NCBI GenBank assembly: GCA_041550235.1
Contig: JBFEPE010000003.1
Span: 1,199-65,198 of the forward strand
Origin: Minisyncoccia bacterium
Lineage (GTDB): Bacteria > Patescibacteriota > Minisyncoccia > UBA6257 > JAAZHW01
Direction of reading: 5' to 3'
Length of the DNA: 64,000 nucleotides
The notes beneath the pieces were generated by a model. That model had not been told where the DNA came from. It was given only the letters and a program-made list of their open reading frames with translations, and ran no database searches. Every line of letters begins with the position of its first letter. Positions within the stretch are counted from its first letter, which is position 1. The translations under genes and the position numbers were made by a program. Of the stretch, positions 5,917 to 49,448 are shown in pieces.

Positions 5917-8433
5917 ATGTTTAACTTTTTGAAGAAAGACTCCGCGGAGGTATTTCGAAAGAAAAACTTAAAAACAATAGAGGCAATCAATAAATTAGAG
6001 CCGGAAATTGAGAAATTGAGCGATTTTTCTCTTAGAGAAAAATCGCTAAAATTAAAGGAGCAAATAAAAAATCCATCCGATTTGGATAATTTTTTAGTAG
6101 AAGGATTTGCTCTTATAAGAGAAGCCGCTAAAAGACAATTGGGACAAAGACACCGACCTTTTGATTCTCAAATGCTTGGAGGATTAGCAATGCATCAAGG
6201 AAAAATAATAGAGATGAAAACAGGTGAAGGGAAAACATTGTCTGCCACCGCCCCAGTTTATTTAAATGCCTTACTGGGAAGAGGAGTTCATATCGTGACC
6301 GTCAATGATTATTTAGCAAAAAGAGATGCAGTTTGGATGGGGCAAATTTATTATGCATTAGGATTATCAGTGAGTTGTATTGTTTCAGGCGATGCATTTA
6401 TTTACGACCCATCAGCCAATGGAAATTCTGATGAAGCAAGAGACAAAAAAGGATTTTTTCAAATAGAGGATTCATATTTAAGGCAGGTTGAAAGAAAAGA
6501 GGCATATCAAGCGGACATCACTTATGGAGCGAATCATGAGTTTGGATTTGATTATTTAAGGGACAATTTAGTTTATAAATTAGAGGACAAAGTCCAAAGA
6601 GGAAGATTTTTCGCAATCGTAGATGAGGTTGATAGTATTTTAATTGACGAGGCAAGAACACCGCTTATCATCACATTTCCCGAAAAAGAATCAAGTAAAT
6701 ATTATTCCCTTTTTTCACAAATTGCCCCTCAATTAAAAAAAGATGAGGATTATGAAGTTGATGAAAAATATCGCTCAGTGAGTATAAATGAATCAGGAAT
6801 TTCAAAAGTAGAAAAAATTTTGGGGATAGATAATCTTTATAGTCAATCAGGTTTTAGATACATCCATTATTTAGAAGAATCATTAAAGGCATTTGCGATT
6901 TTTAAGAAAGATAAGGATTATGTAGTAAAAAACAACGAAGTTTTAATTGTAGATGAATTTACAGGAAGAATTCTTGCAGGGAGAAGATATAGTGGGGGAC
7001 TCCATCAAGCATTGGAAGCAAAAGAAAAAGTTCCTGTTCGTCAAGAAAATAGAATTATGGCAAGCATTACTTATCAAAATTATTTCCGCTCATATGAAAA
7101 ACTATCAGGGATGACTGGGACTGCCCTCACATCAGCTGAGGAATTTGATAAGGTTTATGGATTGGAAGCGGTTGCAATCCCAACCAATAAACCAATTATT
7201 AGAAAAGACTTGCCTGATTTGATTTATAAGACAGAAAAAGAAAAATGGAGTGCGATTATTGAAGAAATAAGGGAGAAAAATGAAAAAGGTCAGCCAATTT
7301 TAGTTGGGACGGCATCAATTGAAAAAAATGAAAAATTATCAGGACTTCTTTCTCGAGTTGGAATTGAGCATAATCTTTTGAATGCAAAAAATCATGAAAA
7401 AGAAGCGGGAATTATTGCTCAAGCAGGGAAAAGGGGTTCAATAACAATCGCCACCAATATGGCAGGAAGGGGTGTTGATATTGTTTTAGGTGGCTCAAAT
7501 AGTAGCCCCGAGGAAGGAGATGAGATAAGAAAGTTGGGCGGATTGGCTGTTATTGCTACTGATAGACATGAGGCAAGAAGAATTGATAATCAGTTAAGAG
7601 GGCGAGCGGGAAGAATGGGCGACCCGGGCGAATCAAGATTTTTTGTTTCATTAGAAGATGATTTGATGAGAATTTTCGGTGGCGAAAAATTAAAGGGGAT
7701 GATGGAGAGATTTAATTATCCAGAAGGGGAGCCAATAGAATCAAAGTTTATTTCAAAGGCAATAGAGTCAGCCCAAAGCAAGGTGGAGGGCATGCATTTT
7801 GATGTAAGAAAACATACTCTTGAGTATGATGATGTTTTGAATAAGCACAGAACTTCTTTTTATAAAAAAAGGAATGAGGTTTTAGAGTCATCTAATTTAG
7901 AGGAATATACATATCAGATTATTAAAAAAAATCTGGAAAGATTTGCTGATGTTCCCAGTGAGGAATTGAATAGGGTATTAAGCGAATTGGAAATTGATTC
8001 TCCTCAAAATTTTGATTCTAAATTTCAGAAAATAAAGACAAATATTGGTATTGATTTATTTGAGCCAACTCTTAAGTCATTGATTTTAAGAATTTTGGAT
8101 TCGTTATGGACGGAGCATTTGGAAGATATGGACCATCTTAGAGACTCGGTTAGATTGAGGGCTTATGGGCATCATGATCCATTAGTGGAATATAGGAATG
8201 GGGGAAAGAAACTTTTTGATGAATTTTTTATGAGATTTGAGGCGATTTTATTTGAGAACTTTTTTAGATTAAAGAAGCCAGAGTTGTCTATTTCGTCTCA
8301 TCAGCCAAAGGTTCCAGCGAATAAGCCACCGTCATCATTATCAAATCCATCGTCGTCTAATTCCAAGATTGGAAGAAATGATCAATGTCCTTGTGGTTCA
8401 GGAAAGAAATATAAGAAATGCTGCGGCTTTTGA
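5917..8433 (+). CDS. secA: Preprotein translocase ATPase SecA
   Basis: 'HQGKIIEMKTGEGKTL' Walker A, DEAD-like 'VDEVDSILIDEARTPLII', C-terminal zinc finger 'CPCGSGKKYKKCCG'. Confidence 0.95.
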   Translation: MFNFLKKDSAEVFRKKNLKTIEAINKLEPEIEKLSDFSLREKSLKLKEQIKNPSDLDNFLVEGFALIREAAKRQLGQRHRPFDSQMLGGLAMHQGKIIEMKTGEGKTLSATAPVYLNALLGRGVHIVTVNDYLAKRDAVWMGQIYYALGLSVSCIVSGDAFIYDPSANGNSDEARDKKGFFQIEDSYLRQVERKEAYQADITYGANHEFGFDYLRDNLVYKLEDKVQRGRFFAIVDEVDSILIDEARTPLIITFPEKESSKYYSLFSQIAPQLKKDEDYEVDEKYRSVSINESGISKVEKILGIDNLYSQSGFRYIHYLEESLKAFAIFKKDKDYVVKNNEVLIVDEFTGRILAGRRYSGGLHQALEAKEKVPVRQENRIMASITYQNYFRSYEKLSGMTGTALTSAEEFDKVYGLEAVAIPTNKPIIRKDLPDLIYKTEKEKWSAIIEEIREKNEKGQPILVGTASIEKNEKLSGLLSRVGIEHNLLNAKNHEKEAGIIAQAGKRGSITIATNMAGRGVDIVLGGSNSSPEEGDEIRKLGGLAVIATDRHEARRIDNQLRGRAGRMGDPGESRFFVSLEDDLMRIFGGEKLKGMMERFNYPEGEPIESKFISKAIESAQSKVEGMHFDVRKHTLEYDDVLNKHRTSFYKKRNEVLESSNLEEYTYQIIKKNLERFADVPSEELNRVLSELEIDSPQNFDSKFQKIKTNIGIDLFEPTLKSLILRILDSLWTEHLEDMDHLRDSVRLRAYGHHDPLVEYRNGGKKLFDEFFMRFEAILFENFFRLKKPELSISSHQPKVPANKPPSSLSNPSSSNSKIGRNDQCPCGSGKKYKKCCGF

Positions 8434-8467
8434 TCTTGATTTATTAATTATTTTATCTCCTTCTTGT

Positions 8468-8528
8468 CATTCCTGTCCGCCAAAGGCGGATAATACTCCA
8501 TCAGCCTGCCCGCCTTCGGCGGGGAATC
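8468..8528 (-). repeat. Inverted copy of a ~61-bp composite two-hairpin repeat (direct copies at 33637-33697 and 47198-47258)
   Basis: The reverse complement reads 'gattccccgccgaaggcgggcaggctgatggagtattatccgcctttggcggacaggaatga', about 90% identical to the other two copies. Confidence 0.75.
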
Positions 8529-8747
8529 TCTACCTTGCTATTATCACTCATTCGCCATCCTTTAGACCCCCGCCTTCGCGGGGGTGACAGAGAGAGGATG
8601 CCTCTCTTATTCCCCGCCCCCGCATAGATTTAAATTTGACATATTCTATAATCTTTGATATTATTAGATTAGAGAATAGATAATATATTTTGTCTATTCT
8701 TGAAAATTTAAGATGATAGAAAATTTAAAAAATAGGAGGAAATTAAA

Positions 8748-9434
8748 ATGACTGAAGAAAAGAAAATTAAAGAGGGGAGTTTTTCTGCTAATCCCTTTGG
8801 GGGAATTATCCCTTATAAAGAAACGGGAGAAGAGAAAATAAAAAAGTTGGAGGCGATATTTTTTTTAATGAGAAAGGAAAGAAAAAGATTGCTATCTGCT
8901 GAAAAAACAGAAAAATTAAAAAGAATGATGCTGGATGATATAAGTTCTTTATTAAATCTCTATGCGGGAATATGCAGAAAGAAAAGATTTTCTCCGAAAA
9001 CCTTGGCGAAAATTGGTGATATCAACCGCACAAATAGACAGAAGATATATGGTTGGGAAAATGAAATGAAGGCATTTGGCATTGAAGACCTTGAATATCA
9101 TAAGGCCGTTGAAACACTCACGGAAAAGGAAAAATGGGATTTGTTTTTTATGATAATTGCCTTTGTGCAAAACAAGGGTTACGGGAACTTTGTTTATCAA
9201 TACGAAGAGTCCAATAAAGAGGATGGAAAATATTGGGAAATTTATTTTAAGGAAAATTGGAGCACATTGTTGAAAAAGATATTTTCTTTGGTCTTTGGGG
9301 AAGATTTTATTAATTATCTGATAGGCCTTGAGGGGGTTGTTGCGGACTCATCTTTGGAAATTCCAATTGAAAGGATTGCTGAACGATTTAAATCATTCAG
9401 CTTCAAATGGATTAATCTTGATTATTCTAAATAA
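8748..9434 (+). CDS. Hypothetical protein (228 aa)
   Basis: Long ORF preceded by the RBS 'aataggagg'; no recognisable motifs. Confidence 0.5.
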   Translation: MTEEKKIKEGSFSANPFGGIIPYKETGEEKIKKLEAIFFLMRKERKRLLSAEKTEKLKRMMLDDISSLLNLYAGICRKKRFSPKTLAKIGDINRTNRQKIYGWENEMKAFGIEDLEYHKAVETLTEKEKWDLFFMIIAFVQNKGYGNFVYQYEESNKEDGKYWEIYFKENWSTLLKKIFSLVFGEDFINYLIGLEGVVADSSLEIPIERIAERFKSFSFKWINLDYSK

Positions 9435-9577
9435 ATAAAAAGATGTCTCCTAAAAAGACAAAGCGGTTCCGCTGACTTTCCTTATTGGGGAAGGTCGGCG
9501 GGCTATTTTTTTACTCTTGAATATATTCAGCAGTATATTCAGTAGTTCTTAAAATATAATTCGACATAATTAAGCGA

Positions 9578-9630
9578 ATAATATTTTTTGAAAATAATAA
9601 AAAATGGTGTATTATGATAATATATAATTA
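9578..9630 (+). promoter_or_regulatory. Promoter-like 52-bp element, copy 1 (TTGAAA, 16 nt, TATTAT); near-identical copy at 10377-10433
   Basis: 'aatattttttgaaaataataaaaaatggtgtattatgataatatataatta' repeated upstream of two different genes; -35/-10-like hexamers spaced 16 nt apart. Confidence 0.5.
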
Positions 9631-9642
9631 ACTTAAAAAATT

Positions 9643-9834
9643 ATGGATAATCAAAGAAATAAAAATAACTCATTAAGACAACTTAAAAAATATGTTGATA
9701 ATTTAGATAGAACAAAGAGCATCACAACAAGAGGTAATTTTGAAAAAGAATGGAGGGAATTAAAGGAAATCGTCGAAGGAGCAAAAAGAATTAATAAAGA
9801 ACAAAAATGGAAAGAGGGCAATTTGAAGAAATAA
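9643..9834 (+). CDS. Small ORF (63 aa) overlapping the start of the PIN-like gene; possible antitoxin
   Basis: Overlaps the next ORF by 28 nt; no motif support. Confidence 0.3.
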   Translation: MDNQRNKNNSLRQLKKYVDNLDRTKSITTRGNFEKEWRELKEIVEGAKRINKEQKWKEGNLKK

Positions 9835-10367
9835 TTAGGAATAAATGGGTTGTATTTGATACAAATATACTTATCAAATCTTTTACATCTGAAAATTTTG
9901 AGAAATTCAAAGTCTTTTTTGATTATTTAAAAAATAATAATTGTGAAATAGTTAATTTTGATTTAGTAGGGTTTGAATTTACGAGAAATGATTATTGCCC
10001 TTCCGATATAGCACATAAAGAAATATTTTTAAAAAAGATTGGTGCGATTTTGTTAAATTTCAATCATGCACCTGATTTATTGGAGGAGGCATTGGAAATT
10101 TCAAGAATATATTCTCATAAAGGGATTCAAAAAGGAAAAATATCTTTAGTGGATTGTTGCCTTGGGGCATTATTAAAAATATATAATAAAAATATTTTTT
10201 TAGCGACATTAAATCACAAAGATTTTCCAACTATTCTATTTGATAGAAAATTCATTTTCCCTATTGATGCTGATGATGATATTCATACAATAGCATTCTA
10301 TAGGTTTAATAATAACAAATGGGCGACATTAAAGAATGATTTTGATAAAATTCAGCAATCTCAATAG
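9807..10367 (+). CDS. PIN-domain-like protein (possible VapC-type toxin)
   Basis: N-terminal 'VVFDTNILIKSF' resembles the PIN domain first strand with the catalytic Asp; assignment is tentative. Confidence 0.4.
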   Translation: MERGQFEEIIRNKWVVFDTNILIKSFTSENFEKFKVFFDYLKNNNCEIVNFDLVGFEFTRNDYCPSDIAHKEIFLKKIGAILLNFNHAPDLLEEALEISRIYSHKGIQKGKISLVDCCLGALLKIYNKNIFLATLNHKDFPTILFDRKFIFPIDADDDIHTIAFYRFNNNKWATLKNDFDKIQQSQ

Positions 10368-10376
10368 GGGCGGGTA

Positions 10377-10433
10377 TAAATAATATTTTTTGAAAATAAT
10401 TAAAAATGGTGTATTATAATAATATATAATTAT
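10377..10433 (+). promoter_or_regulatory. Promoter-like element, copy 2, upstream of the LOG gene
   Basis: 'ataaataatattttttgaaaataattaaaaatggtgtattataataatatataatta', near-identical to 9578-9630. Confidence 0.5.
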
Positions 10434-10439
10434 TATATT

Positions 10440-11171
10440 ATGAAAAATCAAAAAAAGAGACAAAAAGAGAAGGGGGGGAAAAAAATTATAAATGTTCCAT
10501 CAGTTAAATTAAAGGTGGATTCTTTAAATAGAATAAGTTTAGAAAAAATTGTGAGTGGAAAAATAAGGCAAGTCTCAAGAGAATTAGGCAAGGGGCTAAG
10601 ATTTATTAACAGCCACCCTCGCTCAGTAACAGTTTTCGGCTCAGCTAGATTTAAAGAAGATAATATCTATTATCAAAAAGCAAGAGAAATAGGAAGTTTG
10701 ATTATTGAGAATGGTTTTGCTGTTGTCACTGGAGGTGGCCCCGGCATAATGGAAGGTGCCAATAGGGGAGCATTTGAATCACAAGGTCCATCATTAGGAC
10801 TCACAATTGAATTGCCAACCGAACAGGTTATCAACCCTTATGTTAATGGTTATGAGAATTTTGAGTTTTTCTTCACAAGAAAACTTTGTCTTTCTTTCTC
10901 AGCCGAGGCCTTTATATTTATGCCCGGTGGCTATGGCACATTAGACGAGTTTTTTGAGATGATTACTTTAATCCAAACAAAAAAGATACCAAAAATTCCC
11001 GTTTTCTTATTCGGCTCTGAATTTTGGAAGCCATTAGATGATTTCATCAAAAAGTCTCTTATAGAGAAACATAAGACGATAAGCAAGGGCGATGAGAAAA
11101 TCTACACCATCACTGACGACCCAAAGAAAATGGTAAGAATGATTAAGAAGGCAAAGATAAGAATGGGATAA
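10440..11171 (+). CDS. LOG-family protein (TIGR00730, cytokinin riboside 5'-monophosphate phosphoribohydrolase-like)
   Basis: 'VTVFGSARF', 'VVTGGGPGIMEGANRGA', 'PGGYGTLDEFFE' are signature LOG motifs. Confidence 0.85.
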   Translation: MKNQKKRQKEKGGKKIINVPSVKLKVDSLNRISLEKIVSGKIRQVSRELGKGLRFINSHPRSVTVFGSARFKEDNIYYQKAREIGSLIIENGFAVVTGGGPGIMEGANRGAFESQGPSLGLTIELPTEQVINPYVNGYENFEFFFTRKLCLSFSAEAFIFMPGGYGTLDEFFEMITLIQTKKIPKIPVFLFGSEFWKPLDDFIKKSLIEKHKTISKGDEKIYTITDDPKKMVRMIKKAKIRMG

Positions 11172-22085: not shown

Positions 22086-22230
22086 ATCACCCCCCCCCGC
22101 CTACGGCGGGGGGGGGTGATAGAGTGGTTGGTGTTGTAATAATTTTTGAATGATGGATAAATTGCTAATCACCCCCCGCCTACGGCGGGGGGGGTGATAG
22201 AGTGGTTGGTGTTGTAATAATTTTTGAATA
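22086..22230. repeat. Tandem ~65-bp direct repeat (two copies), each containing a 14-bp-stem GC hairpin plus 'gatagagtggttggtgttgtaataatttttgaat'
   Basis: Copy 1 at about 22086-22151 and copy 2 at about 22169-22230, 17 bp apart, directly upstream of the pilin-like gene. Confidence 0.8.
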
Positions 22231-22237
22231 ACAAAAA

Positions 22238-23845
22238 TTGCTTTATAGAATAATTATGTTTAGTTTGAATAAAAAATATATAAAAGGGGTAACACTATTA
22301 GAAACACTGATATATGTTGCTATTTTTGCTGTTGTCGCTGGTGGATTGATAGGAATCTTGTCAGGCACAATAGATGTTGTAAGCAAAGAAGATGCCATAA
22401 ACGAAGTTGATGAGAACTTAAGGCAGGCGATTTCCACAATAGGCAATAGAATAAGAAATACCGATATAATTCAAAGTGCAACAGGCACAACATTAGTTTT
22501 AAGAATGGCGACAACAAGTCCTGGTGGGTTTTCTACTACAACATTTTCTGTTTCCAACGAGATGTTATATTTAACAGAGGGGGATAATGATCCAGTCGCA
22601 GTTATTTCTGATAAGGTAAAAGTTGATAGTTTGGAATTTACAAAAATTTCAATGCCGGGGGCAAAGGGCGGAGTAAGAATAAATATGGTGCTGAGTTATA
22701 ATAGCGATAAGGCATCGCTTTCATTTAGTAAATCTATTCTTTCTACTATCAATAGAGCGGTTGCAATTACATTCAATGAGGATGTTCTGCCGGGAGTAGA
22801 TAACTCATACAATATTGGCTCGTCCGGTAATTTCAGATGGAGGGATGGATATTTTTCTGGTGGATTGAGTGTTGATGGTGGGGTAACATCATCCCAATTT
22901 TGTTTATCTGATGGTTGTCAGACATCATGGGCTGGATTAGGATTATGGACAGCAAATGGCGATGATATTTATTATAATACTGGCAATGTAGGCATTGGAA
23001 CAACAACTCCTGATTTTTTACTTCACTTAGAAAAGGCGACATCCAATCCTGCCATTGTATGGGAAAGAGGAGATGGGGCGACTGGATTTGTAAATTCTAC
23101 TGCCAGTAATGTGGGCCTTGGTTCTGTTTCCAATCACGAGATTAGATTTTTAGTTGGGGCAAGTCCAAAAATGGTTATTGATACGGATGGTAATCTCGGA
23201 ATTGGAACGACTACTCCCGCATCTTTATTGAATTTATATGGTTCAGGGGGTGGTGGTAGCGGAATTATTTTTGGAAATAGTTATGATGATTTTTCTGGAT
23301 ATTTTGTTAATAATGATGACGATAGTGATTTTAGATTAACTTATTTGGGGTCAGGAGGATCGGACATAACTATTCAGGCAGATGGGGATGTTATTTTGGG
23401 GGCGGGTGGCAATGTTGGTATTGGTGATACTACTCCCAGTGAAAAGTTGGATGTGGCAGGGAATATTGGTTTAACCGGAACGGTTATCCCTGATAATGCT
23501 TGTGGTATTACTGGGGGAGTTTTCATTTATGATGCGGGTGGTGTATCCAGTGGTTTAAATTTATCTTCTGTTTATGGATATTCAATGATTTGTCCAGGGA
23601 TTGTTACCGGCATTTCGGCTAGATGTCAAACAGTAGATGCCTCTAACCATGTTGCTTTTGAAGTAAAGAAAAATAATTCTTCTCAAGATTGTGATACATT
23701 AGAAGTAGATACGGCCTATATTAGCGAAATAACATCTGGATGCAGTGTGAGTTTTTCAGCCGGAGATGCTATTAATTGTGCCGCTAAAACTGTAACAGGC
23801 ACAGTATCAACATGTAATTGTTCAATTTCAGTAAGATTTGATTAG
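22238..23845 (+). CDS. Large type IV pilin-like protein with tail-fibre-like Gly-rich repeats
   Basis: N-terminal prepilin signal 'KG|VTLLETLIYVAIFAVVAGGL' with Glu at +5; three repeats of 'GN(V/L)GIG(T/D)TTP...L'; Gly/Ser/Thr-rich C-terminus. Confidence 0.6.
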   Translation: MLYRIIMFSLNKKYIKGVTLLETLIYVAIFAVVAGGLIGILSGTIDVVSKEDAINEVDENLRQAISTIGNRIRNTDIIQSATGTTLVLRMATTSPGGFSTTTFSVSNEMLYLTEGDNDPVAVISDKVKVDSLEFTKISMPGAKGGVRINMVLSYNSDKASLSFSKSILSTINRAVAITFNEDVLPGVDNSYNIGSSGNFRWRDGYFSGGLSVDGGVTSSQFCLSDGCQTSWAGLGLWTANGDDIYYNTGNVGIGTTTPDFLLHLEKATSNPAIVWERGDGATGFVNSTASNVGLGSVSNHEIRFLVGASPKMVIDTDGNLGIGTTTPASLLNLYGSGGGGSGIIFGNSYDDFSGYFVNNDDDSDFRLTYLGSGGSDITIQADGDVILGAGGNVGIGDTTPSEKLDVAGNIGLTGTVIPDNACGITGGVFIYDAGGVSSGLNLSSVYGYSMICPGIVTGISARCQTVDASNHVAFEVKKNNSSQDCDTLEVDTAYISEITSGCSVSFSAGDAINCAAKTVTGTVSTCNCSISVRFD

Positions 23846-23864
23846 GGGTTGAAAAAAGAATTTT

Positions 23865-25331
23865 ATGATAATAAAAACAAGAAAAAAAATATTTTGGGTA
23901 TTATTTGCCTCATTTATATTGGTGGGTGGTTTTTTGGTAATGCATTCATTTGGGTATCGATTAAATGCCAAAGAATTAGAATTTGTTCAAACAGGTGGTC
24001 TTTATTTAGAGACAACACCAAGAATAACGGATATATATTTGGATGGGGAAATAATAAAAGAAAAGTCTGGATTTTTAAATAGCGGAATATTTTTATCAGG
24101 ATTAATTCCAAAAAACTATGAAATAAATATATCAAAAGATAAATATTTTCTTTGGAAAAAGAATTTAGAAATAAAACCAAGTTTAGTGAGTGGTTTAAGT
24201 CATGTAGTGATTCTACCCAAAGAAGTAAATAAAGATCTATTTTATGAGGCGGGCGATAATGAAAAAATTTTTGACTTTATTAAATTAAATAATGATTTAT
24301 TTGGATTGGAAATTATATCAAAAGAAAATGGTCTTTCTTGGCAGATATTAAAAATTATTGATTCAAATGGCGAGCAACAAGAATTATTCAGGAAAAGATT
24401 TTTTAGTTCAAAGCAGATGGGATTATTAAAGAATCTGTCTTTTAATAATAATAATTCTCAAGTAATAATTTCTTTAACTGATTTAGGAAAAAATAAATTC
24501 TATATTTGGAGCAAAAGCGATTCGGAAGATTTGATTTATTTCAACGATGTTTTAGTAAAGTATTTTCCTTCAGAAATAAAGAAGATAGATTTTCATCCAT
24601 TTAATAAAGGTCAATTTATTATTCAATCAGAAAATCGATTAGCGATTTTTGATTTAAATAAAAAAGAAGTTTCTTATCTTTCGGCCGAAAAATTAGTTGA
24701 TGCAAAAATTTCTAATTCTCATATTTTTTGGGTAGAAAATTTAGGATTAGTTTATTCATATAATTTAATATCAAAAAACACCTCGTTTTTAGGAGAAATA
24801 GAGGAGGGAAATTTAGAGGGAAGGATAAGCATTTTAAATTCTTCCAATTCGCAGTATTTAGCAATGCTTTTGAATGATGGAATGCTTGTTTTGTTCTCTG
24901 ATGACAAGGTCAAATTTATTAGCGATAGAGTTATTGATTTTAAGTTTTCTCCTGATAATAAAAAGTTGGCATATATGATGGAGGGGGTAGATGGAAAAAT
25001 AGATTTATTAGTTTATTTCTTAAAAGAAATCACATCTGATATTGAGAAGGAGCCCGGCGATGAGTCTGTTTTTAATCTGAATTATTTAAAAAATGATGAT
25101 TTGAGATTTGTTTGGTTTGATGATTCTTATCATTTGATTTTTGCCAATTCCGATGGACTCACCCAATTTTTAGAAATTGATGATAGGGATAATGTCAATA
25201 TCTTTAATTATCAGTTTGAAAGTGGAGGTTTTGTTTTGAACGGCGACGGAGATATATTCAGGGTCAATGCTGATTTAGTGGAGGATATTAATTTATTAGT
25301 GCCGAATATAGACAAAGATGTTGATGAATAA
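23865..25331 (+). CDS. Membrane-anchored PEGA-like domain protein, probably followed by a beta-propeller-like region
   Basis: N-terminal TM; 'LETTPRITDIYLDGEIIKEKSGFLNSGIFLSGLIPKNYEINISKDKYFLWKKNLEIKP' resembles a PEGA domain; lies between the pilin and pilB genes. Confidence 0.45.
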   Translation: MIIKTRKKIFWVLFASFILVGGFLVMHSFGYRLNAKELEFVQTGGLYLETTPRITDIYLDGEIIKEKSGFLNSGIFLSGLIPKNYEINISKDKYFLWKKNLEIKPSLVSGLSHVVILPKEVNKDLFYEAGDNEKIFDFIKLNNDLFGLEIISKENGLSWQILKIIDSNGEQQELFRKRFFSSKQMGLLKNLSFNNNNSQVIISLTDLGKNKFYIWSKSDSEDLIYFNDVLVKYFPSEIKKIDFHPFNKGQFIIQSENRLAIFDLNKKEVSYLSAEKLVDAKISNSHIFWVENLGLVYSYNLISKNTSFLGEIEEGNLEGRISILNSSNSQYLAMLLNDGMLVLFSDDKVKFISDRVIDFKFSPDNKKLAYMMEGVDGKIDLLVYFLKEITSDIEKEPGDESVFNLNYLKNDDLRFVWFDDSYHLIFANSDGLTQFLEIDDRDNVNIFNYQFESGGFVLNGDGDIFRVNADLVEDINLLVPNIDKDVDE

Positions 25332-27067: not shown

Positions 27068-27487
27068 ATGATTGAATTTTCTAAAGAAAAATTGAATAGT
27101 ATTGCCGAGGAATATCAATTAGCAGATATATACTTTTTTGGTTCTCAAATAACCGGATTAACTCATCCCGAAAGTGATTTTGATGTAGCAGTTCGCTTTA
27201 GAAATGGCTTGCCTGAGAAAGAAAAAAGAGGAAAAATATATGCCAATCTTTTCGCTGATTTAAGCGGCACCTTGAAAATGTCTAATTTGGATTTAGTGTT
27301 CATAGAAGAAGCACCTTTGCATATTCAATTTCAAATTATCAATAAGGGTAAATTAGTTTATTCTCATCACAGAATAAATTCTTGTGATTTTCAAGAAAAA
27401 ATAGTAAATTATTATCGTGATTATAAGTATTTCATTGATGAGTTTTTTAAAGGCGTTTTAGAATCTTCCGTGAAAAATAAGAAATAA
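27068..27487 (+). CDS. Minimal nucleotidyltransferase (MNT-type antitoxin)
   Basis: 'FFGSQITGLTHPESDFDVAV' is the Pol-beta-type NTase motif. Confidence 0.75.
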   Translation: MIEFSKEKLNSIAEEYQLADIYFFGSQITGLTHPESDFDVAVRFRNGLPEKEKRGKIYANLFADLSGTLKMSNLDLVFIEEAPLHIQFQIINKGKLVYSHHRINSCDFQEKIVNYYRDYKYFIDEFFKGVLESSVKNKK

Positions 27488-27505
27488 TAAATAATTTTAT
27501 TTAAT

Positions 27506-27946
27506 ATGTTTAATGATTTTGACAAAGAAAAAATAATAGCAAGAATTGATGATATTAAAAATTCTCATTCAGAACTCAAAAGACTTTCAGGTATTAGCAT
27601 TGATGACTTTAGAAAAAACAAAGAAAATTATCCTTTGGCTATTTATTATTTAAGAATAGCATTAGAATCAGTGCTAACTATTGCCACTCATGTTCTTTCT
27701 CGATTGCCCTCTAATGGGAAAGAAAAAGATTATACTCAATTAATCTTATCATTGGCTGATTATAAGGTTATTCCTTATGAATTTGCTCAAAAAATAAAGG
27801 GGATGGCTGGATATAGAAATAGATTAGTTCATCTCTACTGGAAAATATCGGATGAGGAAGTATTGTCTATTATTAAGGAAAATATAAATGATTTTGAGGA
27901 ATTTATTGAATATGTAAATGAATTTTTAAGAAAGAACAGCAACTAA
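27506..27946 (+). CDS. HEPN-domain protein (HepT/DUF86-type toxin)
   Basis: 'GYRNRLVHLYW' is the Rx4-6H HEPN motif; adjacent to the NTase. Confidence 0.75.
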   Translation: MFNDFDKEKIIARIDDIKNSHSELKRLSGISIDDFRKNKENYPLAIYYLRIALESVLTIATHVLSRLPSNGKEKDYTQLILSLADYKVIPYEFAQKIKGMAGYRNRLVHLYWKISDEEVLSIIKENINDFEEFIEYVNEFLRKNSN

Positions 27947-32905: not shown

Positions 32906-32938
32906 ATCCAATCTCAAAAAGTTAGGATGTTTTTTAAT
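32906..32938. terminator. Bidirectional terminator shared by rpsP (+) and rnpB (-)
   Basis: 'aaaaaacatccaatctcaaaaagttaggatgtttttt': hairpin with an A-run upstream and a T-run downstream. Confidence 0.65.
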
Positions 32939-33372
32939 TCAACAATAATAAGCCGGATTCTGTATCAACAATCATTTATCTATGAATAGTGTCGCCACTA
33001 TTCTATAGCGATCCACCTTTTCGCTTATAAAAAGCGATTTGATCTTGCACCGGATAGGGCTTGCCAGCAATGGCTTATCACTAAGCCCGCATAAGAGTAG
33101 CAATTATGAAAATCACATCTCTTATCTTTTCACCTTTCTCCAGCCCCACTTTTATTTCTAAAAGTGGGGCTGGGTAGTATTGTCTCTGTGGCGCTTTCCC
33201 TATCCAGCACCACTTTTATTTCTAAAAGTGGTGCTGGGCGGTTGGTGTTACCAACTATCCATTTTCCAATATTTATATTTAATAATAAAATAATAAATAT
33301 TTTGGGTGTCCGGACTTTCCTCTTCTTATGTTGCCGAAGCAATATAAGAAGCGATTGCTTTTGCCGAATTGC
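32936..33372 (-). ncRNA. rnpB: RNase P RNA (bacterial type)
   Basis: Minus-strand sense carries the P4 motif 'GAGGAAAGUCCGGACACC' (plus strand 33303-33320), the 3' P4 motif 'ACAGAAUCCGGCUUA' (plus strand 32948-32962), a P3 hairpin, P1/P2 pairing, and two duplicated hairpins with a compensatory C-G to A-U change. Confidence 0.75.
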
Positions 33373-40821: not shown

Positions 40822-41871
40822 ATGTTGGCAACAATTCCCACAAAAGAAAATATAATAAAAATAATGGAGGGGCTATCTCCTGAATTAAGGCAGACAATAT
40901 CAAGCCGTGAAACAGCTAAGGATATTGAAAATGCCGTCTTAATGCATAAAGTTCCAACAGAAAAAATAAAGGGACTAGTATCATCAGTCGGCTATGTTTT
41001 GCTCGGATTATATAATCACGAAGAATTTACAAAAGATTTATCTAAAGACTTAGGAATAGATCCGCTAATTGCAAGAGATTTAGCAATAGATATTGATAGA
41101 AGCATTTTTTTGCCTATTCGTGATGAAATAAAAAAAGCCCATAAGATTTTCAAAGAAGGCGGAATCAAGAAAGTTGAAAAAGTTGAAGGAATAAAAAAGA
41201 TAGAAGAAATTAAAAAAGAAACAATAATTCCAAAAGAGGAAGAAGAAAAGAAAGAAGAGGAGAAAAAATTTGAAGAAAAGAAATTTGAGAAAAAAATATT
41301 TCCAAAAAGTTTTGCTCCCAAAAAAATTGGCCCAATGGTAGATATAAAGAAGAAGGAAGAAGTCCGAAAAGAATTTAAGCCAATTTCAATTAGAGGAGAA
41401 GAAGCAAAAGTAAAGCCAACACTACAAACAAAATCTCCAATTTCAAGTGTATTTGAGCAAGTAGAAAAAAAGAAAGAAGAAGTAGTTTCAAGATTAGAAA
41501 TAAAGAAGGACGAGCCAACTAAAATAGTTAATTTTACTGCTGATAATTTATCCCCACCTCCACAAATTGAGAAAAAACCGGGGGCAGTAGAAAAAACGAC
41601 TATTCCATCGCCAAAAGAAATGGCAGATGAAGGATTGATGATGGAGAAAAAACTGGAAATGGCAGGAAAAATAATGGAAAAAAAAGTAGGGGGAATAATA
41701 GTGGAGAAAAAAGAAAAAGAAGAAAAAAAGATTGAGACAATGGCAGAAAAAGAAAAAGAAGTAGGGAAAATGGTAATTGAGAAAAAAGAAGAATTAGAGA
41801 CAAAGGCAATAGCAGAAGAAAAAACAAAAGAAAAAGAAAATATAATAAATCTAAAAAAATTAAAGTTTTAA
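40822..41871 (+). CDS. Hypothetical K/E-rich protein (349 aa)
   Basis: Structured N-terminal ~110 aa followed by low-complexity KE repeats. Confidence 0.45.
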   Translation: MLATIPTKENIIKIMEGLSPELRQTISSRETAKDIENAVLMHKVPTEKIKGLVSSVGYVLLGLYNHEEFTKDLSKDLGIDPLIARDLAIDIDRSIFLPIRDEIKKAHKIFKEGGIKKVEKVEGIKKIEEIKKETIIPKEEEEKKEEEKKFEEKKFEKKIFPKSFAPKKIGPMVDIKKKEEVRKEFKPISIRGEEAKVKPTLQTKSPISSVFEQVEKKKEEVVSRLEIKKDEPTKIVNFTADNLSPPPQIEKKPGAVEKTTIPSPKEMADEGLMMEKKLEMAGKIMEKKVGGIIVEKKEKEEKKIETMAEKEKEVGKMVIEKKEELETKAIAEEKTKEKENIINLKKLKF

Positions 41872-41872
41872 T

Positions 41873-42268
41873 ATGCCAACATTCCAAGTGCCACAATTTA
41901 TTGATATAGAGGATAAGATTATCGGGCCTCTCTCATTGAGACAATTTATAATTTTAGCAATAACTGGGGGCTTGCTATTTGCTTTATTTAAAATTTTTCA
42001 ATTTTGGTTGTTCTTTATTTTTGGAGGAATAATTGCGGCATTAGGAATGTCGTTGGCATTTGTGAAGATAAATGGGCAAAGATTTGATAAGGTTGCATTG
42101 AATGCTTTGAGATATTTTATCTCTCCGCGACTCTATGTTTGGAGAAGACCAGAAAAAAGTAAGCAATTATCAGTTGCTCCAAAGATAGAAGTAAAGAAAA
42201 AGGTTGAGGAGCAGAAGAGAATGACTCTTGAGCAATTAGAGGAATTTGCCAAAAAATTGGATAAATAG
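41873..42268 (+). CDS. VirB3/PrgI-like small two-TM protein
   Basis: 'FQVPQFIDIEDKIIGPLSLRQFIILAITGGLLF' resembles the PrgI-family N-terminal motif; lies directly upstream of VirB4-related ORFs. Confidence 0.4.
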   Translation: MPTFQVPQFIDIEDKIIGPLSLRQFIILAITGGLLFALFKIFQFWLFFIFGGIIAALGMSLAFVKINGQRFDKVALNALRYFISPRLYVWRRPEKSKQLSVAPKIEVKKKVEEQKRMTLEQLEEFAKKLDK

Positions 42269-42276
42269 CAACAAAT

Positions 42277-42936
42277 ATGCCAGCAGAAATATCAACAGAA
42301 CAATTTGTAAGTATAGAAACAATAAAGGACGATTCCGTCGTATTAAAGGACGGCTCATTAAGAGCCGTTATAATGGTTTCTGGAATAAATTTTGATTTGA
42401 AATCAGAAGACGAGCAAAATTTAATTATTGGCTCATTTCAAGGTCTTTTAAATAGATTAGATTTTTCAGTTCAATTCATTACTCATTCAAGAAAGCTAAA
42501 TATTGATAGTTATCTAAGAGATATGGGTAAGAGAAGCGAGAAAGAAGAAAATCCATTATTAAAAAATCAAACAACAGAATATATAAGTTTCATAAGCTCG
42601 CTTGTGAATGTTGCCAATGTGATGTCAAAAAGATTTTATGTCGTTGTTCCCTATAGTGTTTTGGCAGTTGAGGCAGAAGAGACAATCTCAAAATTTATTG
42701 GGTTTTTGCCTTTTGGAAAGGGAAAGTCTAACAATGAGGCAAATAAGAAAAAGGAGAATTTTGAGTCACAAAAAATTCAGTTAAAGCATAGGGTAGATTC
42801 TGTAATGGCTGGATTGAGATCAACCGGAGTGAGGAGTATTAGATTGGAGACAGAAGATTTATTGGAGCTTTATTATAATCTTTATAATCCGGAAAAGAAG
42901 GAAAAGAAGATCCCAAAAATATTTGAGGATATTTAA
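42277..42936 (+). CDS. VirB4/TrbE N-terminal-domain-like protein (219 aa), apparently the detached N-domain of the VirB4 ATPase
   Basis: 'SIETIKDDSVVLKDGSLRAVIMVSGINFDLKSEDEQ' resembles the VirB4/TraC N-terminal region; together with the 604-aa ORF it totals 823 aa, the length of a full VirB4. Confidence 0.45.
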   Translation: MPAEISTEQFVSIETIKDDSVVLKDGSLRAVIMVSGINFDLKSEDEQNLIIGSFQGLLNRLDFSVQFITHSRKLNIDSYLRDMGKRSEKEENPLLKNQTTEYISFISSLVNVANVMSKRFYVVVPYSVLAVEAEETISKFIGFLPFGKGKSNNEANKKKENFESQKIQLKHRVDSVMAGLRSTGVRSIRLETEDLLELYYNLYNPEKKEKKIPKIFEDI

Positions 42937-42940
42937 TAAA

Positions 42941-42976
42941 AAGGGGCAGGGTGTTTTTTCACCCGCCCTTTTCGGC
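42941..42976. terminator. Bidirectional terminator (gggcagggtg...cacccgccc flanked by A- and T-runs)
   Basis: 'aaaaggggcagggtgttttttcacccgcccttttcgg'. Confidence 0.6.
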
Positions 42977-42981
42977 AATAA

Positions 42982-43302
42982 CTAAAATTTTACCACGGCC
43001 GCAAGTACTGATTTCCCGTTATTAAAATCTTCGGGAGTTCCCCAATTGAGCCAGTTTCGAAAATTAATTTCTACAAGCCCTTTAGTAGGGGTAGGAATAC
43101 TATAATCCGTTTTTGGTTTGCAATTCAAGGTGCTACCGTTATTACTCTTGAGCAGAATGTTTTTTACAAATATCCCATCTCGGAATGACACTTCTTTAAT
43201 AGTCCAACCAAGATGAATAACCTCGTCTGAGTCCACAAATTCAATAGTCATTTCCTTGTTTATTCTAGCATTTGAATAAAGATCTCTTTTTTTTCTAGTC
43301 AT
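42982..43302 (-). CDS. Hypothetical protein (106 aa) inserted between the two VirB4 parts
   Basis: Strong RBS 'aataggaggaataaata' before the ATG; divergent from the promoter module. Confidence 0.45.
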   Translation of the reverse strand: MTRKKRDLYSNARINKEMTIEFVDSDEVIHLGWTIKEVSFRDGIFVKNILLKSNNGSTLNCKPKTDYSIPTPTKGLVEINFRNWLNWGTPEDFNNGKSVLAAVVKF

Positions 43303-43388
43303 TATTTATTCCTCCTATTTTTTTAATTTTTAACATCTTAACGGAAACTCAACCATCAAATTTCCCGCCAACATTATATCACAAATAA

Positions 43389-43445
43389 ATATATTTGTCA
43401 ATAGTGGGGGTTGGGTTTGACTTATAATAGTATTAATGAACATCC
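43389..43445 (+). promoter_or_regulatory. Conserved promoter-like element, copy 1 ('tgtcaatagtgggggttgggtttgacttataatag')
   Basis: Near-identical to 46727-46793; contains TATAAT at 43423-43428. Confidence 0.55.
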
Positions 43446-43579
43446 TGTCTTCGTCGACCCGCCTTCGCTAAAGCTACGGCAGGGCAGGGGACTTCGGCGG
43501 GCAAAGGAGAAACACCCCGTCCCGCCAAGAGACGAGCCACCCCTCTATAAGAGGGGAATAAGAAATAAGATAAAAAAAT
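43446..43579 (+). promoter_or_regulatory. Structured GC-rich 5' leader of virB4 with the motif 'ggagaaacaccccgtccc-hairpin-ccacccctctataagagggg'
   Basis: The motif recurs at 46826-46880 and 47383-47448. Confidence 0.5.
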
Positions 43580-45394: not shown

Positions 45395-45474
45395 ATTTTT
45401 TGTTTTTGATTTTTTTTGAAATAAAAAAACAGCATTTGAGGATTTCTCCCCAAATGCTTTCTAATTTTTATACT

Positions 45475-46647: not shown

Positions 46648-46726
46648 TTTATTCCTCCTATTCGTTTTATTTTATTATTTTATTTTTAAACATCAGGAAA
46701 TCTGACTTTCCTGATAGTATGATGTA

Positions 46727-46793
46727 ATATATTTATAAAAATGTCAATAGTAGGGGTTGGGTTTGATTTATAATGGTAAGGATGAACACCCCG
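46727..46793 (+). promoter_or_regulatory. Conserved promoter-like element, copy 2 ('tgtcaatagtaggggttgggtttgatttataatgg')
   Basis: TATAAT at 46769-46774. Confidence 0.55.
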
Positions 46794-47952: not shown

Positions 47953-47964
47953 TCAATAATTAAT

Positions 47965-48681: not shown

Positions 48682-48696
48682 ATTAATTAAAATCTT

Positions 48697-48726
48697 ATAT
48701 AGCCCCCCGCGAAGGCGGGGGGCTAT
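48697..48726. repeat. GC palindrome 'tatagccccccgcgaaggcggggggctata'
   Basis: Inverted repeat. Confidence 0.75.
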
Positions 48727-48792
48727 AGGGAAAAGTAATAAATAATAAAAAACATCCTGTTTCATAATTAAATGTAAAAAAATATAATACAT

Positions 48793-49440: not shown

Positions 49441-49448
49441 ATAAAAAT

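What the first reader, a model, noticed from the sequence alone, without database searches (positions are those of the whole stretch)
22238..23845. 535-aa type IV pilin-like protein carrying three 'GNxGIGTTTP' repeats
The N-terminus, 'KG|VTLLETLIYVAIFAVV', is a class III prepilin-peptidase substrate with Glu+5, so this is a pilin or pseudopilin. The remaining ~500 aa are far larger than a typical pilin. They contain three spaced repeats, 'NTGNVGIGTTTPDFLLHL', 'DGNLGIGTTTPASLLNLY' and 'GGNVGIGDTTPSEKLDV', of a kind recalled from phage tail-fibre and beta-helical adhesin proteins, plus a Gly/Ser/Thr-rich tail. It may be a tip adhesin or large pilin, possibly mediating host-cell attachment.
Basis: partly seen in the sequence, partly recalled or inferred. 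Interest (0 to 1): 0.55.

Follow-up and report, generated by a model that had tools for sequence, protein, structure and literature searches.

The report
Pilin-anchored tail-fibre-like adhesin, swappable tip
This gene from an ultrasmall Patescibacteria (CPR) bacterium fuses a type IV pilin to a phage-tail-fibre-like stalk and a variable tip, so it probably sits on a pilus as the part that recognises the host cell; that role is inferred, not shown.

Summary
The ORF is real; its likelier start is the ATG at 22256, giving 529 aa. It has a prepilin leader (MFSLNKKYIKG|VTLLE, Glu+5; Pfam N_methyl above threshold) and three GN[VL]GIG[TD]TTP motifs.

The protein has four parts:
- **Pilin module:** a confidently predicted helix plus beta-sheet.
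- **Neck:** specific to this family, with no known relative.
- **Stalk:** homologous to the trimeric beta-helix of Bdellovibrio MAT fibres (Bd2133, E=1e-7) and to phage tail-fibre PHROGs.
- **Tip:** a folded, Cys-rich jelly roll resembling C1q/TNF-like domains and phage tail-fibre tips, not a disordered tail.

The gene heads an apparent operon with a PEGA/beta-propeller-like membrane protein and a PilB ATPase. In near-identical strains the flanks and the 5' half are 96-100% identical in DNA. The stalk and tip drop to 30-60%, with sharp boundaries, which indicates cassette exchange.

The 205-aa N-terminal module defines a large family (535 clusters at E<1e-30). Named members are nearly all Patescibacteria. 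Tips in the family are mosaic: S74 chaperone, tail collar, Kelch, LamG.

Best reading: a homotrimeric modular minor pilin at the pilus tip that binds the host, working like CofB but with MAT-like parts. Trimerisation, tip location and ligand are inferred. I rate it a new variant of known kinds.

The parts
22256..23845 (+). Coding sequence of the pilin-fibre protein (529 aa plus stop). An alternative TTG start at 22238 would give 535 aa.
   Evidence: P0001 is 100% identical over 529 aa; the Met is conserved in relatives
22256..22288 (+). Class III (prepilin) leader MFSLNKKYIKG, residues 1-11. Predicted cleavage is after Gly11.
   Evidence: Pfam N_methyl at residues 7-31, 22.9 bits > GA 21.2; the motif is found only once in the window
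22289..22456 (+). Alpha-1 helix of the pilin module (residues 12-67), hydrophobic at its N-terminal end, with Glu16 (= Glu+5).
   Evidence: AF2 helix 14-67, pLDDT 66-90; E16 is invariant in 140 family representatives
22457..22753 (+). [quoted passage not shown]
   Evidence: AF2 strands 69-166, pLDDT mostly 75-91; conserved across the family
22754..22960 (+). Family-specific neck (residues 167-235). It contains INR..ITF.ED.LP...N.Y.IG....RW.DGYFSG and a C216-x4-C221 loop. F173, P179, G188 and W195 are invariant.
   Evidence: absent from non-pilin fibre proteins; no Pfam or PDB match; AF2 monomer pLDDT <50
22961..23458 (+). Fibre stalk (residues 236-401) with three GN[VL]GIG[TD]TTPxxxL loops at nt 22982-23011, 23189-23218 and 23408-23437. 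It is homologous to the trimeric beta-helix of MAT and tail fibres. The part between about 23020 and 23425 is a variable cassette.
   Evidence: homology and motif; AF2 monomer pLDDT <50; nt identity to near-identical strains drops to 28-57% here
23459..23842 (+). Stalk-tip junction (GNIGLTGTVIPDNACG) followed by a Cys-rich jelly-roll tip (residues 402-529; cysteines at 416, 446, 457, 479, 496, 508, 520, 522). The part from about 23516 to 23845 is a second variable cassette.
   Evidence: AF2 pLDDT 80-90 for residues 441-529; Foldseek matches to C1q/TNF-like folds and phage tail-fibre tips; Cys conservation; variability
23865..25331 (+). Conserved downstream partner: a 488-aa protein with an N-terminal TM helix, then PEGA-like and beta-propeller-like regions. 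A 19-nt gap separates it from the pilin-fibre gene.
   Evidence: no Pfam or PDB sequence hit; one homolog is named 'PEGA domain-containing protein [Patescibacteria]' and two homologs carry beta-propeller Pfams; synteny in L002, L003, L005 and L009
25343..27040 (+). PilB/GspE-type type IV pilus assembly ATPase (565 aa), 11 nt after the previous gene.
   Evidence: Pfam T2SSE E=2.8e-117 and MshEN; same gene order in L001, L002, L003 and L009

Best explanation
The gene encodes a modular type IV minor pilin whose cargo is a phage-tail-fibre / MAT-like receptor-binding fibre.

Proposed mechanism:
1. The 11-residue leader is removed by a prepilin peptidase. The hydrophobic alpha-1 helix with Glu5 parks the protein in the membrane.
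2. Three copies associate through the neck, the intertwined beta-helical stalk (about 13 nm by scaling from Bd2133) and the C1q/TNF-like tip.
3. The three pilin heads form the cap or initiator on which the adjacent PilB ATPase polymerises a major pilin that is encoded elsewhere. The fibre therefore ends up at the distal tip of the pilus, as with the CofB homotrimer of ETEC type IVb pili.
4. The tip binds a surface molecule, probably a glycan, on the host cell of this episymbiont.
5. Specificity is changed by recombinational replacement of the stalk and tip cassettes between conserved junctions.

Shown here by computation: the prepilin motif and pilin-like fold, stalk homology to solved trimeric fibres, the jelly-roll tip, operon linkage to PilB, cassette-like variability, and the existence of a large family with mosaic tips.

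Inferred: processing, trimerisation, tip location, the ligand, and the role in host attachment.
For: **Pilin module:** Pfam N_methyl above threshold with Glu+5. AF2 gives helix 14-67 plus a sheet at 69-166, pLDDT 75-91.

**Stalk:** phmmer against PDB sequences hits Bd2133 (8ond, E=1.2e-7), Bd2439 (8ol4, E=8e-4) and another MAT fibre chain (8ojn/8onb/8onc, 'cell wall surface anchor family protein', E=0.02), aligned across the repeat loops. The aligned Bd2133 and Bd2439 segments are crystallised as meandering trimeric beta-helices with a recurring capping-loop motif (PMC10769870). PHROG tail-fibre family phrog_9942 scores E=4e-5.

**Indirect support for a trimer:**
- AF2 run as a monomer fails exactly on residues 170-440 (pLDDT <50), while both flanking domains are confident.
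- The tip resembles folds that are obligate trimers: C1q, Cbln, adiponectin, ExsFA/BxpB and the Bd2439 tip. Foldseek probability is about 1.0, E=3.6e-3 to 5e-2, TM 0.40-0.48.
- 126 BFVD hits at E<1e-3 are dominated by phage tail-fibre, minor-tail and C1q proteins.
- Family members with the same N-terminal module end in Peptidase_S74 (the trimer-folding chaperone) or the phage tail Collar domain.

**Pilus link:** the genes are spaced 19 and 11 nt apart in the order pilin-fibre, 488-aa protein, PilB. The same order is seen in L001, L002, L003, L005 and L009.

**Receptor-binding signature:** against L005, DNA is 98-100% identical up to about 23020. It falls to 30-57% in the stalk, rises to 87% at the loop-3 / tip junction, falls to 38-64% in the tip, and returns to 96-100% from the next gene. 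Protein identity by region (residues 1-166 / 167-260 / 261-400 / 401-529) is 99/99/53/52% against P0002 and 93/91/24/46% against P0003, while the neighbouring proteins are 92-98% identical.

**Precedents:** the homotrimeric tip minor pilin CofB (PMC6048534), modular pilins in general (PMC8179133), and the Saccharibacteria PilX2 tip pilin needed for host binding (PMC11623550).
Against: - No multimer prediction could be run, so the trimer rests on homology and on indirect signs.
- No major pilin, PilC, PilM or prepilin peptidase lies in the 64-kb window, so the filament it would cap has not been identified.
- More distant family members are not next to T4P genes: L007/L008, L010 and L011.
- There is no sequence similarity to CofB or TcpB.
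- The ligand and the host are unknown.
Confidence: 0.55

Rival explanations
1. Anchor-only surface fibre. The pilin module serves just as a class III signal and membrane (or very short pseudopilus) anchor. It displays the trimeric fibre directly on the cell surface, as the unrelated N-terminal domain does for Bdellovibrio MAT fibres. No long pilus is involved.
For: The gene is the only prepilin-type gene within ±8 kb in almost every locus examined. Distant family members are not linked to T4P genes. MAT fibres are surface-anchored through an N-terminal domain.
Against: Glu5 and a full pilin head are strictly conserved, as expected for a subunit that docks into a filament. In the closest relatives there is tight operon linkage to a PilB assembly ATPase.
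Confidence: 0.25
2. Monomeric modular minor pilin. The stalk folds as a single-chain beta-solenoid and the tip as a monomeric lectin, as in ComZ or S. sanguinis PilB/PilC. One copy would sit per pilus.
For: Most characterised modular pilins are monomers. No direct oligomer evidence was obtained here.
Against: The stalk is homologous to fibres that are intertwined trimers. The AF2 monomer cannot fold it. The tip resembles obligate-trimer folds. S74 and Collar domains occur in paralogous family members.
Confidence: 0.1
3. A phage or prophage tail-fibre gene that happens to sit in the chromosome, with a chance pilin-like N-terminus.
For: PHROG tail-fibre hits. A non-pilin protein with the same tip (P0020, about 46-50% identity over the last 150 aa) lies in an integrase-bearing element next to another tail-fibre-like gene. 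One family member is annotated 'tail fiber protein'.
Against: The neighbours are housekeeping and T4P genes: NusB, GDSL lipase, PilB, sigma-70, RuvC. The pilin module is conserved in at least 535 clusters. IMG/VR viral contigs contain no relatives of either the N-terminal module or the tip.
Confidence: 0.03
4. DNA-uptake (competence) pilus minor pilin whose C-terminal module binds DNA.
For: A weak NCBIfam hit of the N-terminus to ComGE (E=0.008, far below its cut-off). Patescibacteria are naturally competent (PMC10187176, listed).
Against: The hit covers only the generic alpha-1 segment. The tip is hypervariable between near-identical strains, which fits receptor diversity and not a constant ligand such as DNA.
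Confidence: 0.04

Closest known systems
Bdellovibrio bacteriovorus MAT (mosaic adhesive trimeric) fibres, e.g. Bd2133, Bd2439 (Caulton et al. 2024, PMC10769870)
   Same: The stalk is sequence-homologous and carries the recurring GxxGxGTxxPxxxL capping-loop motif. C-terminal tips are mosaic and exchangeable, and include TNF-like domains and S74 chaperones. Both belong to a bacterium that must recognise other bacteria.
   Different: MAT proteins have a Sec signal peptide and a conserved ~130-aa beta-rich N-terminal anchor. Here that is replaced by a type IV prepilin leader, a pilin module and a family-specific neck. This protein is about half the size, and it sits in an operon with PilB.
CofB (ETEC CFA/III) and TcpB (V. 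cholerae TCP) type IVb minor pilins
   Same: An N-terminal pilin domain is followed by beta-rich C-terminal domains that homotrimerise. Together they form the initiator and tip complex of the pilus, and the distal domain is lectin-like (PMC6048534). This is the mechanism proposed here.
   Different: There is no detectable sequence similarity. The leader here is short (11 residues), not the long T4b type. The stalk is tail-fibre-like and the tip C1q-like, instead of a beta-repeat plus an H-type lectin. Trimerisation is not shown here.
Modular type IV pilins (Raynaud et al. 2021, PMC8179133), including the InterPro architecture IPR012902-Peptidase S74
   Same: A pilin module is fused to a functional module for display on the filament. 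That survey already lists pilin-S74 proteins and many CPR examples.
   Different: The survey read S74 as a 'peptidase activity'. It did not recognise a tail-fibre stalk, the conserved 205-aa module with its neck, the trimeric implication or cassette swapping. The protein here has no Pfam domain beyond N_methyl, so a domain-based survey would miss it.
Saccharibacteria (TM7x) minor pilins PilX1 (jelly-roll / L-type lectin-like) and PilX2 (beta-propeller) (PMC11623550)
   Same: These are Patescibacteria minor pilins with large lectin-like C-terminal domains proposed to sit at the tip. PilX2 is needed for efficient host binding. LamG-type and Kelch/RCC1-type tips also occur in the family defined here.
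   Different: No tail-fibre stalk is described for PilX1 or PilX2, and they are reported to lack a predicted PilD signal.
Phage tail fibres and tailspikes with S74 intramolecular chaperone, or with C1q-like or collar tips
   Same: Same stalk repeat family (PHROG hits; weak hits in Synechococcus, Pelagibacter and Roseobacter phages). The tip fold is similar to Gordonia phage tail-fibre tips (rmsd 3.1-3.4 Å over about 120 residues). Evolution is mosaic.
   Different: It is chromosomal, in a T4P operon, with a pilin N-terminus in place of a virion-attachment domain. It is not found in viral contig collections.

Membership tests
Type IV pilin / pseudopilin (class III signal peptide proteins) | Short basic leader ending in Gly, followed by about 20 hydrophobic residues with Glu at +5 (Pfam PF07963 / IPR012902) | tested here: met
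   MFSLNKKYIKG|VTLLETLIYVAIFAVVAGGLIG; N_methyl 22.9 bits against GA 21.2
Type IV pilin / pseudopilin (class III signal peptide proteins) | Lollipop fold: a long N-terminal helix packed on an antiparallel beta-sheet | tested here: met
   AF2 gives helix 14-67 and strands 69-166, pLDDT 75-91. This is a prediction only; the top 50 Foldseek PDB hits listed no pilin because the tip dominated the ranking.
Type IV pilin / pseudopilin (class III signal peptide proteins) | Cleavage and N-methylation by a prepilin peptidase (PilD); incorporation into a filament | not testable with these tools
   No Peptidase_A24 gene among the ORFs of the window that were scanned. Only 64 kb of the genome is visible.
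Type IV pilin / pseudopilin (class III signal peptide proteins) | Genetic association with T4P/T2SS assembly machinery | tested here: met
   A PilB (T2SSE, E=2.8e-117) lies two genes downstream with 19- and 11-nt gaps. This is conserved in five related loci but not in distant members.
Modular pilins (sensu Raynaud et al. 2021) | N-terminal pilin module plus an additional module that is not specific to T4P biology | tested here: met
   Residues 1-166 are the pilin module. Residues 236-529 are homologous to MAT and tail fibres.
MAT fibre family (Bdellovibrio) | Beta-helical fibre region with recurring capping loops, homologous to Bd2133, Bd3182 and Bd2439 | tested here: met
   phmmer E=1.2e-7 to 8ond (Bd2133) and 8e-4 to 8ol4 (Bd2439), aligned over the GN.GIGT..P...L loops
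MAT fibre family (Bdellovibrio) | Sec signal peptide followed by the conserved ~130-aa beta-rich N-terminal anchor domain present in all 21 MATs | tested here: not met
   The N-terminus is a prepilin leader plus a pilin module. The feature is as described in PMC10769870. No MAT N-terminal sequence was available for a direct comparison.
MAT fibre family (Bdellovibrio) | Homotrimeric, meandering assembly | not testable with these tools
   Only monomer AF2 was available. The stalk has pLDDT <50 as a monomer, which is compatible with an obligate oligomer but is not proof.
MAT fibre family (Bdellovibrio) | Variable C-terminal tip, or an S74 chaperone | tested here: met
   This protein has a C1q/TNF-like tip. 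Family tips include S74 (7 of 89), Collar, Kelch and LamG. This protein itself has no S74.
CofB/TcpB-type trimeric initiator minor pilins (T4bP) | Sequence or fold homology to CofB/TcpB: T4b pilin domain, beta-repeat domain, H-type lectin domain | tested here: not met
   No CofB or TcpB chain appears among the PDB sequence hits at E<=10, nor in the top 50 Foldseek hits.
C1q/TNF-like jelly-roll domains | Compact jelly-roll beta-sandwich superimposable on C1q or TNF-family globular heads | tested here: inconclusive
Phage tail fibre (virion component) | Encoded among phage structural genes, or in viral contigs | tested here: not met
   The context is housekeeping and T4P genes. IMG/VR contains no relatives.

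The most novel reading that the evidence does not exclude
Patescibacteria possess a phylum-wide family, hundreds of sequence clusters strong, of type IV pilins that carry a phage-tail-fibre-like homotrimeric receptor-binding fibre on the pilus tip. These fibres would be the primary determinants of which host cell an episymbiont can attach to. Their stalk and tip cassettes would be exchanged by recombination at conserved junctions, partly from the same pool as mobile-element or phage fibres, giving CPR bacteria a phage-like way of switching host range. The conserved neck would be a new adaptor that converts three helically staggered pilin heads into a threefold-symmetric fibre.
Probability: 0.35. 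Interest if true: 0.8.

Novelty: new variant of a known kind. Interest (0 to 1): 0.6.

Why it matters
How ultrasmall CPR/Patescibacteria find and hold their specific host cells is a central open question. Only a few Saccharibacteria pilins have been studied experimentally.

This locus points to a concrete candidate host-recognition device that can be recognised from sequence. A conserved 205-aa pilin-plus-neck module can be used as a search handle. The variable tips attached to it could be catalogued, matched to hosts, expressed and tested on glycan arrays.

It also connects three separately described ideas: modular pilins, trimeric tip-initiator pilins and predator MAT fibres. It suggests that tail-fibre building blocks are shared among phages, predatory bacteria and episymbionts. 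If the trimer-on-a-pilus geometry is confirmed, the neck would be a new structural solution for mounting a threefold fibre on a helical filament.

Tried and rejected
1. **Tip-only homolog search** (residues 400-529): returned nothing, not even the protein itself. I treat this as a word-index limitation, not as evidence of absence.
2. **The search for related loci with the 18-sequence N-terminal alignment:** failed for lack of a conserved stretch. Repeating with 5 closer sequences gave only 3 loci.
4. **Viral origin:** IMG/VR contained no relatives of the tip or of the pilin module. Cultured phages gave only weak hits to the repeat region.
5. **Silent cassettes or DGR-type template repeats:** blastn and tblastn of the gene against the whole window found nothing, and no reverse transcriptase was seen in the ORFs scanned. 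DGR mutagenesis and local cassette-switching are therefore not supported. The variation looks like replacement between strains.
6. **Promoter and terminator scan:** no better than shuffled sequence.
7. **GC-rich hairpin upstream of the gene:** I considered a phase-variation tract, but it is a dispersed intergenic repeat found throughout the window, so it is not specific to this gene.
8. **488-aa neighbour:** Pfam and PDB sequence searches gave nothing.
9. **Pam pili of CPR** (bioRxiv 10.64898/2026.03.03.709456): checked and found unrelated. They assemble by donor-strand exchange and are not type IV pilins.
Full report
**1. Observation**

The ORF at 22238-23845 (+) is real. The TTG at 22238 gives 535 aa. 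The ATG at 22256 gives 529 aa, which is the public gene call (P0001, 100% identity, 68-kb NCBI contig). It also aligns with the initiator Met of the relatives.

The N-terminus MFSLNKKYIKG|VTLLETLIYVAIFAVVAGGLIG has Glu at +5. It passes Pfam N_methyl (22.9 bits against a gathering score of 21.2).

Three exact GN[VL]GIG[TD]TTP motifs lie at residues 243-252, 312-321 and 385-394 (nt 22982-23011, 23189-23218, 23408-23437). The motif occurs nowhere else in the six-frame translation of the window. None of 100,000 shuffles of the protein gave three hits to a looser version.

**2. Anatomy** (529-aa numbering)

AlphaFold2, run with 19 homologues, is confident for a helix at 14-67 and a beta-sheet at 69-166. 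That is a pilin-type lollipop, pLDDT about 75-91. It is also confident for a C-terminal beta-sandwich at about 441-529, pLDDT 80-90. It fails (pLDDT <50) on residues 170-440. A second run on the tip alone agrees.

Alignments define the following parts:
- leader, residues 1-11
- pilin module, residues 12-166
- a strongly conserved neck, residues 167-235 (ITF.ED.LP...N.Y.IG....RW.DGYFSG, with F173, P179, G188 and W195 invariant in 140 representatives, plus a C216-x4-C221 loop)
- a stalk, residues 236-401, carrying the three loops
- a conserved junction, GNIGLTGTVIPDNACG
- a tip with eight conserved cysteines

Two of those cysteines (C457, C520) are lost together in P0020, which suggests they form a disulfide pair. 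So the 'Gly/Ser/Thr-rich tail' is a folded, disulfide-rich extracellular domain.

**3. What the parts resemble**

*Stalk.* Sequence search of the PDB hits the Bdellovibrio fibres Bd2133 (8ond, E=1.2e-7), Bd2439 (8ol4/8onf, E=8e-4) and another MAT fibre chain (8ojn, deposited as 'cell wall surface anchor family protein', E=0.02). The alignments are centred on the repeats. PHROGs gives tail-fibre families phrog_9942 (E=4e-5) and phrog_7049 (E=8e-3).

The paper describing these fibres (PMC10769870) shows that they are 'mosaic adhesive trimers'. They are meandering trimeric beta-helices with a recurring capping-loop motif. The tips are interchangeable: S74 chaperone, TNF-like, C-type lectin and novel sandwiches. 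A conserved ~130-aa N-terminal anchor follows a signal peptide.

*Tip.* Foldseek places the tip with C1q/TNF-like jelly rolls, all of which are trimeric: ExsFA/BxpB, C1QL1-3, Cbln1/4, adiponectin and the Bd2439 tip. Probability is about 1.0, but E is only 3.6e-3 to 5e-2 and TM 0.40-0.48.

Against predicted viral structures there are 126 hits at E<1e-3. They are dominated by phage tail-fibre, minor-tail, C1q and collagen-repeat proteins. Examples are the Gordonia phage GMA2 tail fibre (rmsd 3.4 Å over 121 columns) and Avazak (3.1 Å over 118).

**4. Context**

The window comes from a 33% GC genome. The nearest relatives are Candidatus Paceibacteria/Paceibacterota MAGs.

The gene follows NusB and a GDSL lipase. 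Then come, 19 nt later, a 488-aa membrane protein and, 11 nt after that, a PilB/GspE ATPase (T2SSE E=2.8e-117). The 488-aa protein has no Pfam or PDB sequence hit. One of its homologs is named 'PEGA domain-containing' and two carry beta-propeller Pfams.

The order pilin-fibre, (Peptidase_S26, small protein), ~480-aa protein, PilB recurs in L001, L002, L003, L005 and L009. More distant family members instead sit beside a divergently transcribed LepA with no T4P genes nearby.

No other prepilin-type gene, PilC, PilM or PilD lies in the window. A second PilB-like ATPase lies at 60486-62207.

**5. Cassette-like variability**

Two metagenomic contigs come from very close strains. Their 488-aa and PilB proteins are 92-98% identical to those of the window. 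DNA identity in 45-nt steps behaves as follows:

| Region | vs L005 | vs L002 |
|---|---|---|
| 22256 to about 23020 | 91-100% | 76-96% |
| about 23066-23425 (stalk) | 30-71% | 28-40% |
| 23426-23515 (loop 3 and junction) | 87% | 42%, then 78% (23471-23515) |
| 23516-23875 (tip) | 38-64% | 37-69% |
| from 23876 (next gene) | 96-100% | 96-100% |

Blastn similarity ends at 23010 (L002) and 23219 (L005). These are the ends of loop motifs 1 and 2. For L005 it resumes at 23406, the start of loop 3.

Protein identities by region (residues 1-166 / 167-260 / 261-400 / 401-529) are 99/99/53/52% against P0002 and 93/91/24/46% against P0003. P0004 has a divergent N-terminus (56%) but shares stalk segments (56%).

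This pattern indicates replacement of modules by recombination between conserved junctions, not gradual divergence. No silent cassette, template repeat or reverse transcriptase is present in the window.

A protein without a pilin module but with the same tip (P0020, about 46-50% identity over the last 150 aa) lies next to another tail-fibre-like gene in an integrase-bearing element. Neither the tip nor the pilin module has relatives in IMG/VR.

**6. A family**

A profile of the 205-aa N-terminal module, searched against 1.84 billion cluster representatives, finds 535 proteins at E<1e-30 and 3,671 at E<1e-10. The top 150 all match end to end and range from 212 to 1,930 aa.

Of 140 representatives, 138 have the prepilin motif, 130 have the neck and 119 have at least one fibre loop.

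A Pfam census of 89 of them gives:
- N_methyl: 73
- Peptidase_S74: 7
- Kelch propellers: 4
- Laminin_G_3: 3
- phage tail Collar: 3
- Gly_rich_2: 2
- DUF1554: 2
- LVIVD, YadA_head, F5/8-C, Dockerin and RCC1-like: 1 each

Most tips are unannotated.

Among the members looked up that carry an organism name, all are Patescibacteria, Wolfebacteria or Paceibacterota except one bin labelled Marinimicrobia. Their annotations range from 'tail fiber protein' to 'type II secretion system protein'. The neck is absent from fibre proteins that lack the pilin module.

**7. Mechanism**

The best-supported reading is a modular minor pilin that works like CofB/TcpB. Three copies trimerise through their C-terminal domains and form the initiator and cap of the pilus, presenting a lectin-like head at the distal end (PMC6048534). 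Here the trimerising part is a MAT/tail-fibre stalk with an exchangeable receptor-binding tip.

Support for a trimer is indirect:
- homology to solved trimers
- failure of the monomer AF2 run precisely on the stalk
- a tip whose fold is an obligate trimer elsewhere
- S74 and Collar domains in sister proteins

Support for a receptor-binding role comes from the cassette variability and from the precedent of PilX2, which is needed for host binding in Saccharibacteria (PMC11623550).

Processing, oligomeric state, location and ligand are all inferences. The main rival (confidence 0.25) is that the pilin module is only a surface anchor. Monomeric, phage-borne and DNA-uptake readings are less likely, for the reasons given under each rival.

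**8. Comparison and novelty**

The protein meets the definition of a type IV pilin and of a modular pilin. It shares the MAT stalk and tip logic but fails the MAT N-terminal-anchor criterion. It shows no homology to CofB/TcpB. It works like these systems without being a member of either.

Modular pilins, including a pilin-S74 architecture and many CPR examples, were catalogued in 2021 (PMC8179133). There, S74 was read as a peptidase activity. No tail-fibre stalk, neck, trimer or cassette exchange was noted. The present protein has no Pfam domain beyond N_methyl, so that survey would not have caught it.

Full-text searches found no paper describing pilin-anchored tail-fibre or MAT-like fibres in Patescibacteria. 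The recently described CPR Pam pili are unrelated.

I therefore rate it a new variant of known kinds, of moderate to good interest. It gives a concrete, searchable candidate for the host-specificity determinant of CPR episymbionts.

Noticed in passing
window 22089-22242; also 3055, 16461, 54745, 54848 and variants at 2462, 20151, 20609, 20727, 28677, 33475, 48703, 51406, 57200: A GC-rich palindrome, CCCCCGCC-TAC-GGCGGGGG with C/G runs of up to 9, is a dispersed intergenic element in this 33% GC sequence (25 strand-matches, 0 expected by chance). Two tandem copies of about 78 nt sit directly upstream of the pilin-fibre gene, whereas the close relative L002 has one. It may be a terminator or a REP-like element. 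The homopolymer lengths differ between the copies.
   Followed up: partly
window 23865-25331: A 488-aa protein (N-terminal TM helix, then PEGA-like and beta-propeller-like regions) has no Pfam or PDB sequence match. It always lies between the pilin-fibre gene and PilB in close relatives (L002, L003, L005, L009). It is possibly an uncharacterised T4P component specific to Patescibacteria.
   Followed up: partly
window 40822-50633: Genes of a monoderm-type type IV secretion (conjugation-like) system: PrgI-family protein (41873-42268) and a TraG/VirB4-like ATPase (43580-45394), flanked by several ORFs with no Pfam hit.
   Followed up: no
window 60486-62207 (-): A second PilB/GspE-type ATPase (T2SSE E=2e-122, MshEN) with no adjacent pilin genes. 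The organism may run two type IV filament systems, as TM7x does.
   Followed up: no
window 27068-27946: An MNT (nucleotidyltransferase) / HepT toxin-antitoxin pair lies immediately downstream of PilB.
   Followed up: no
L002 3386-4711: In a strain about 94% identical to the window, a two-gene insertion (a 207-aa methyltransferase-like protein and a 230-aa protein, probably a restriction-modification system) separates the 488-aa gene from PilB. It is absent from the window.
   Followed up: no
L006 (JACGKY010000327.1) 6704-10911: An integrase-bearing element encodes two consecutive tail-fibre-like proteins (752 and 636 aa). The second, P0020, has no pilin module but carries the same Cys-rich tip as the window protein (about 46-50% identity), and it lacks two of the eight cysteines together.
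   Followed up: partly
L003 7470-8215; L009 9658-10182; L007 8539-9192: A signal peptidase I (Peptidase_S26) gene lies next to the pilin-fibre gene in several relatives, and LepA is divergently transcribed upstream in distant members. Neither is adjacent to the pilin-fibre gene in the window.
   Followed up: no
window 32932-33370 (-): Bacterial RNase P RNA class A (143.9 bits). ARAGORN found no tRNA gene in the 64 kb.
   Followed up: no
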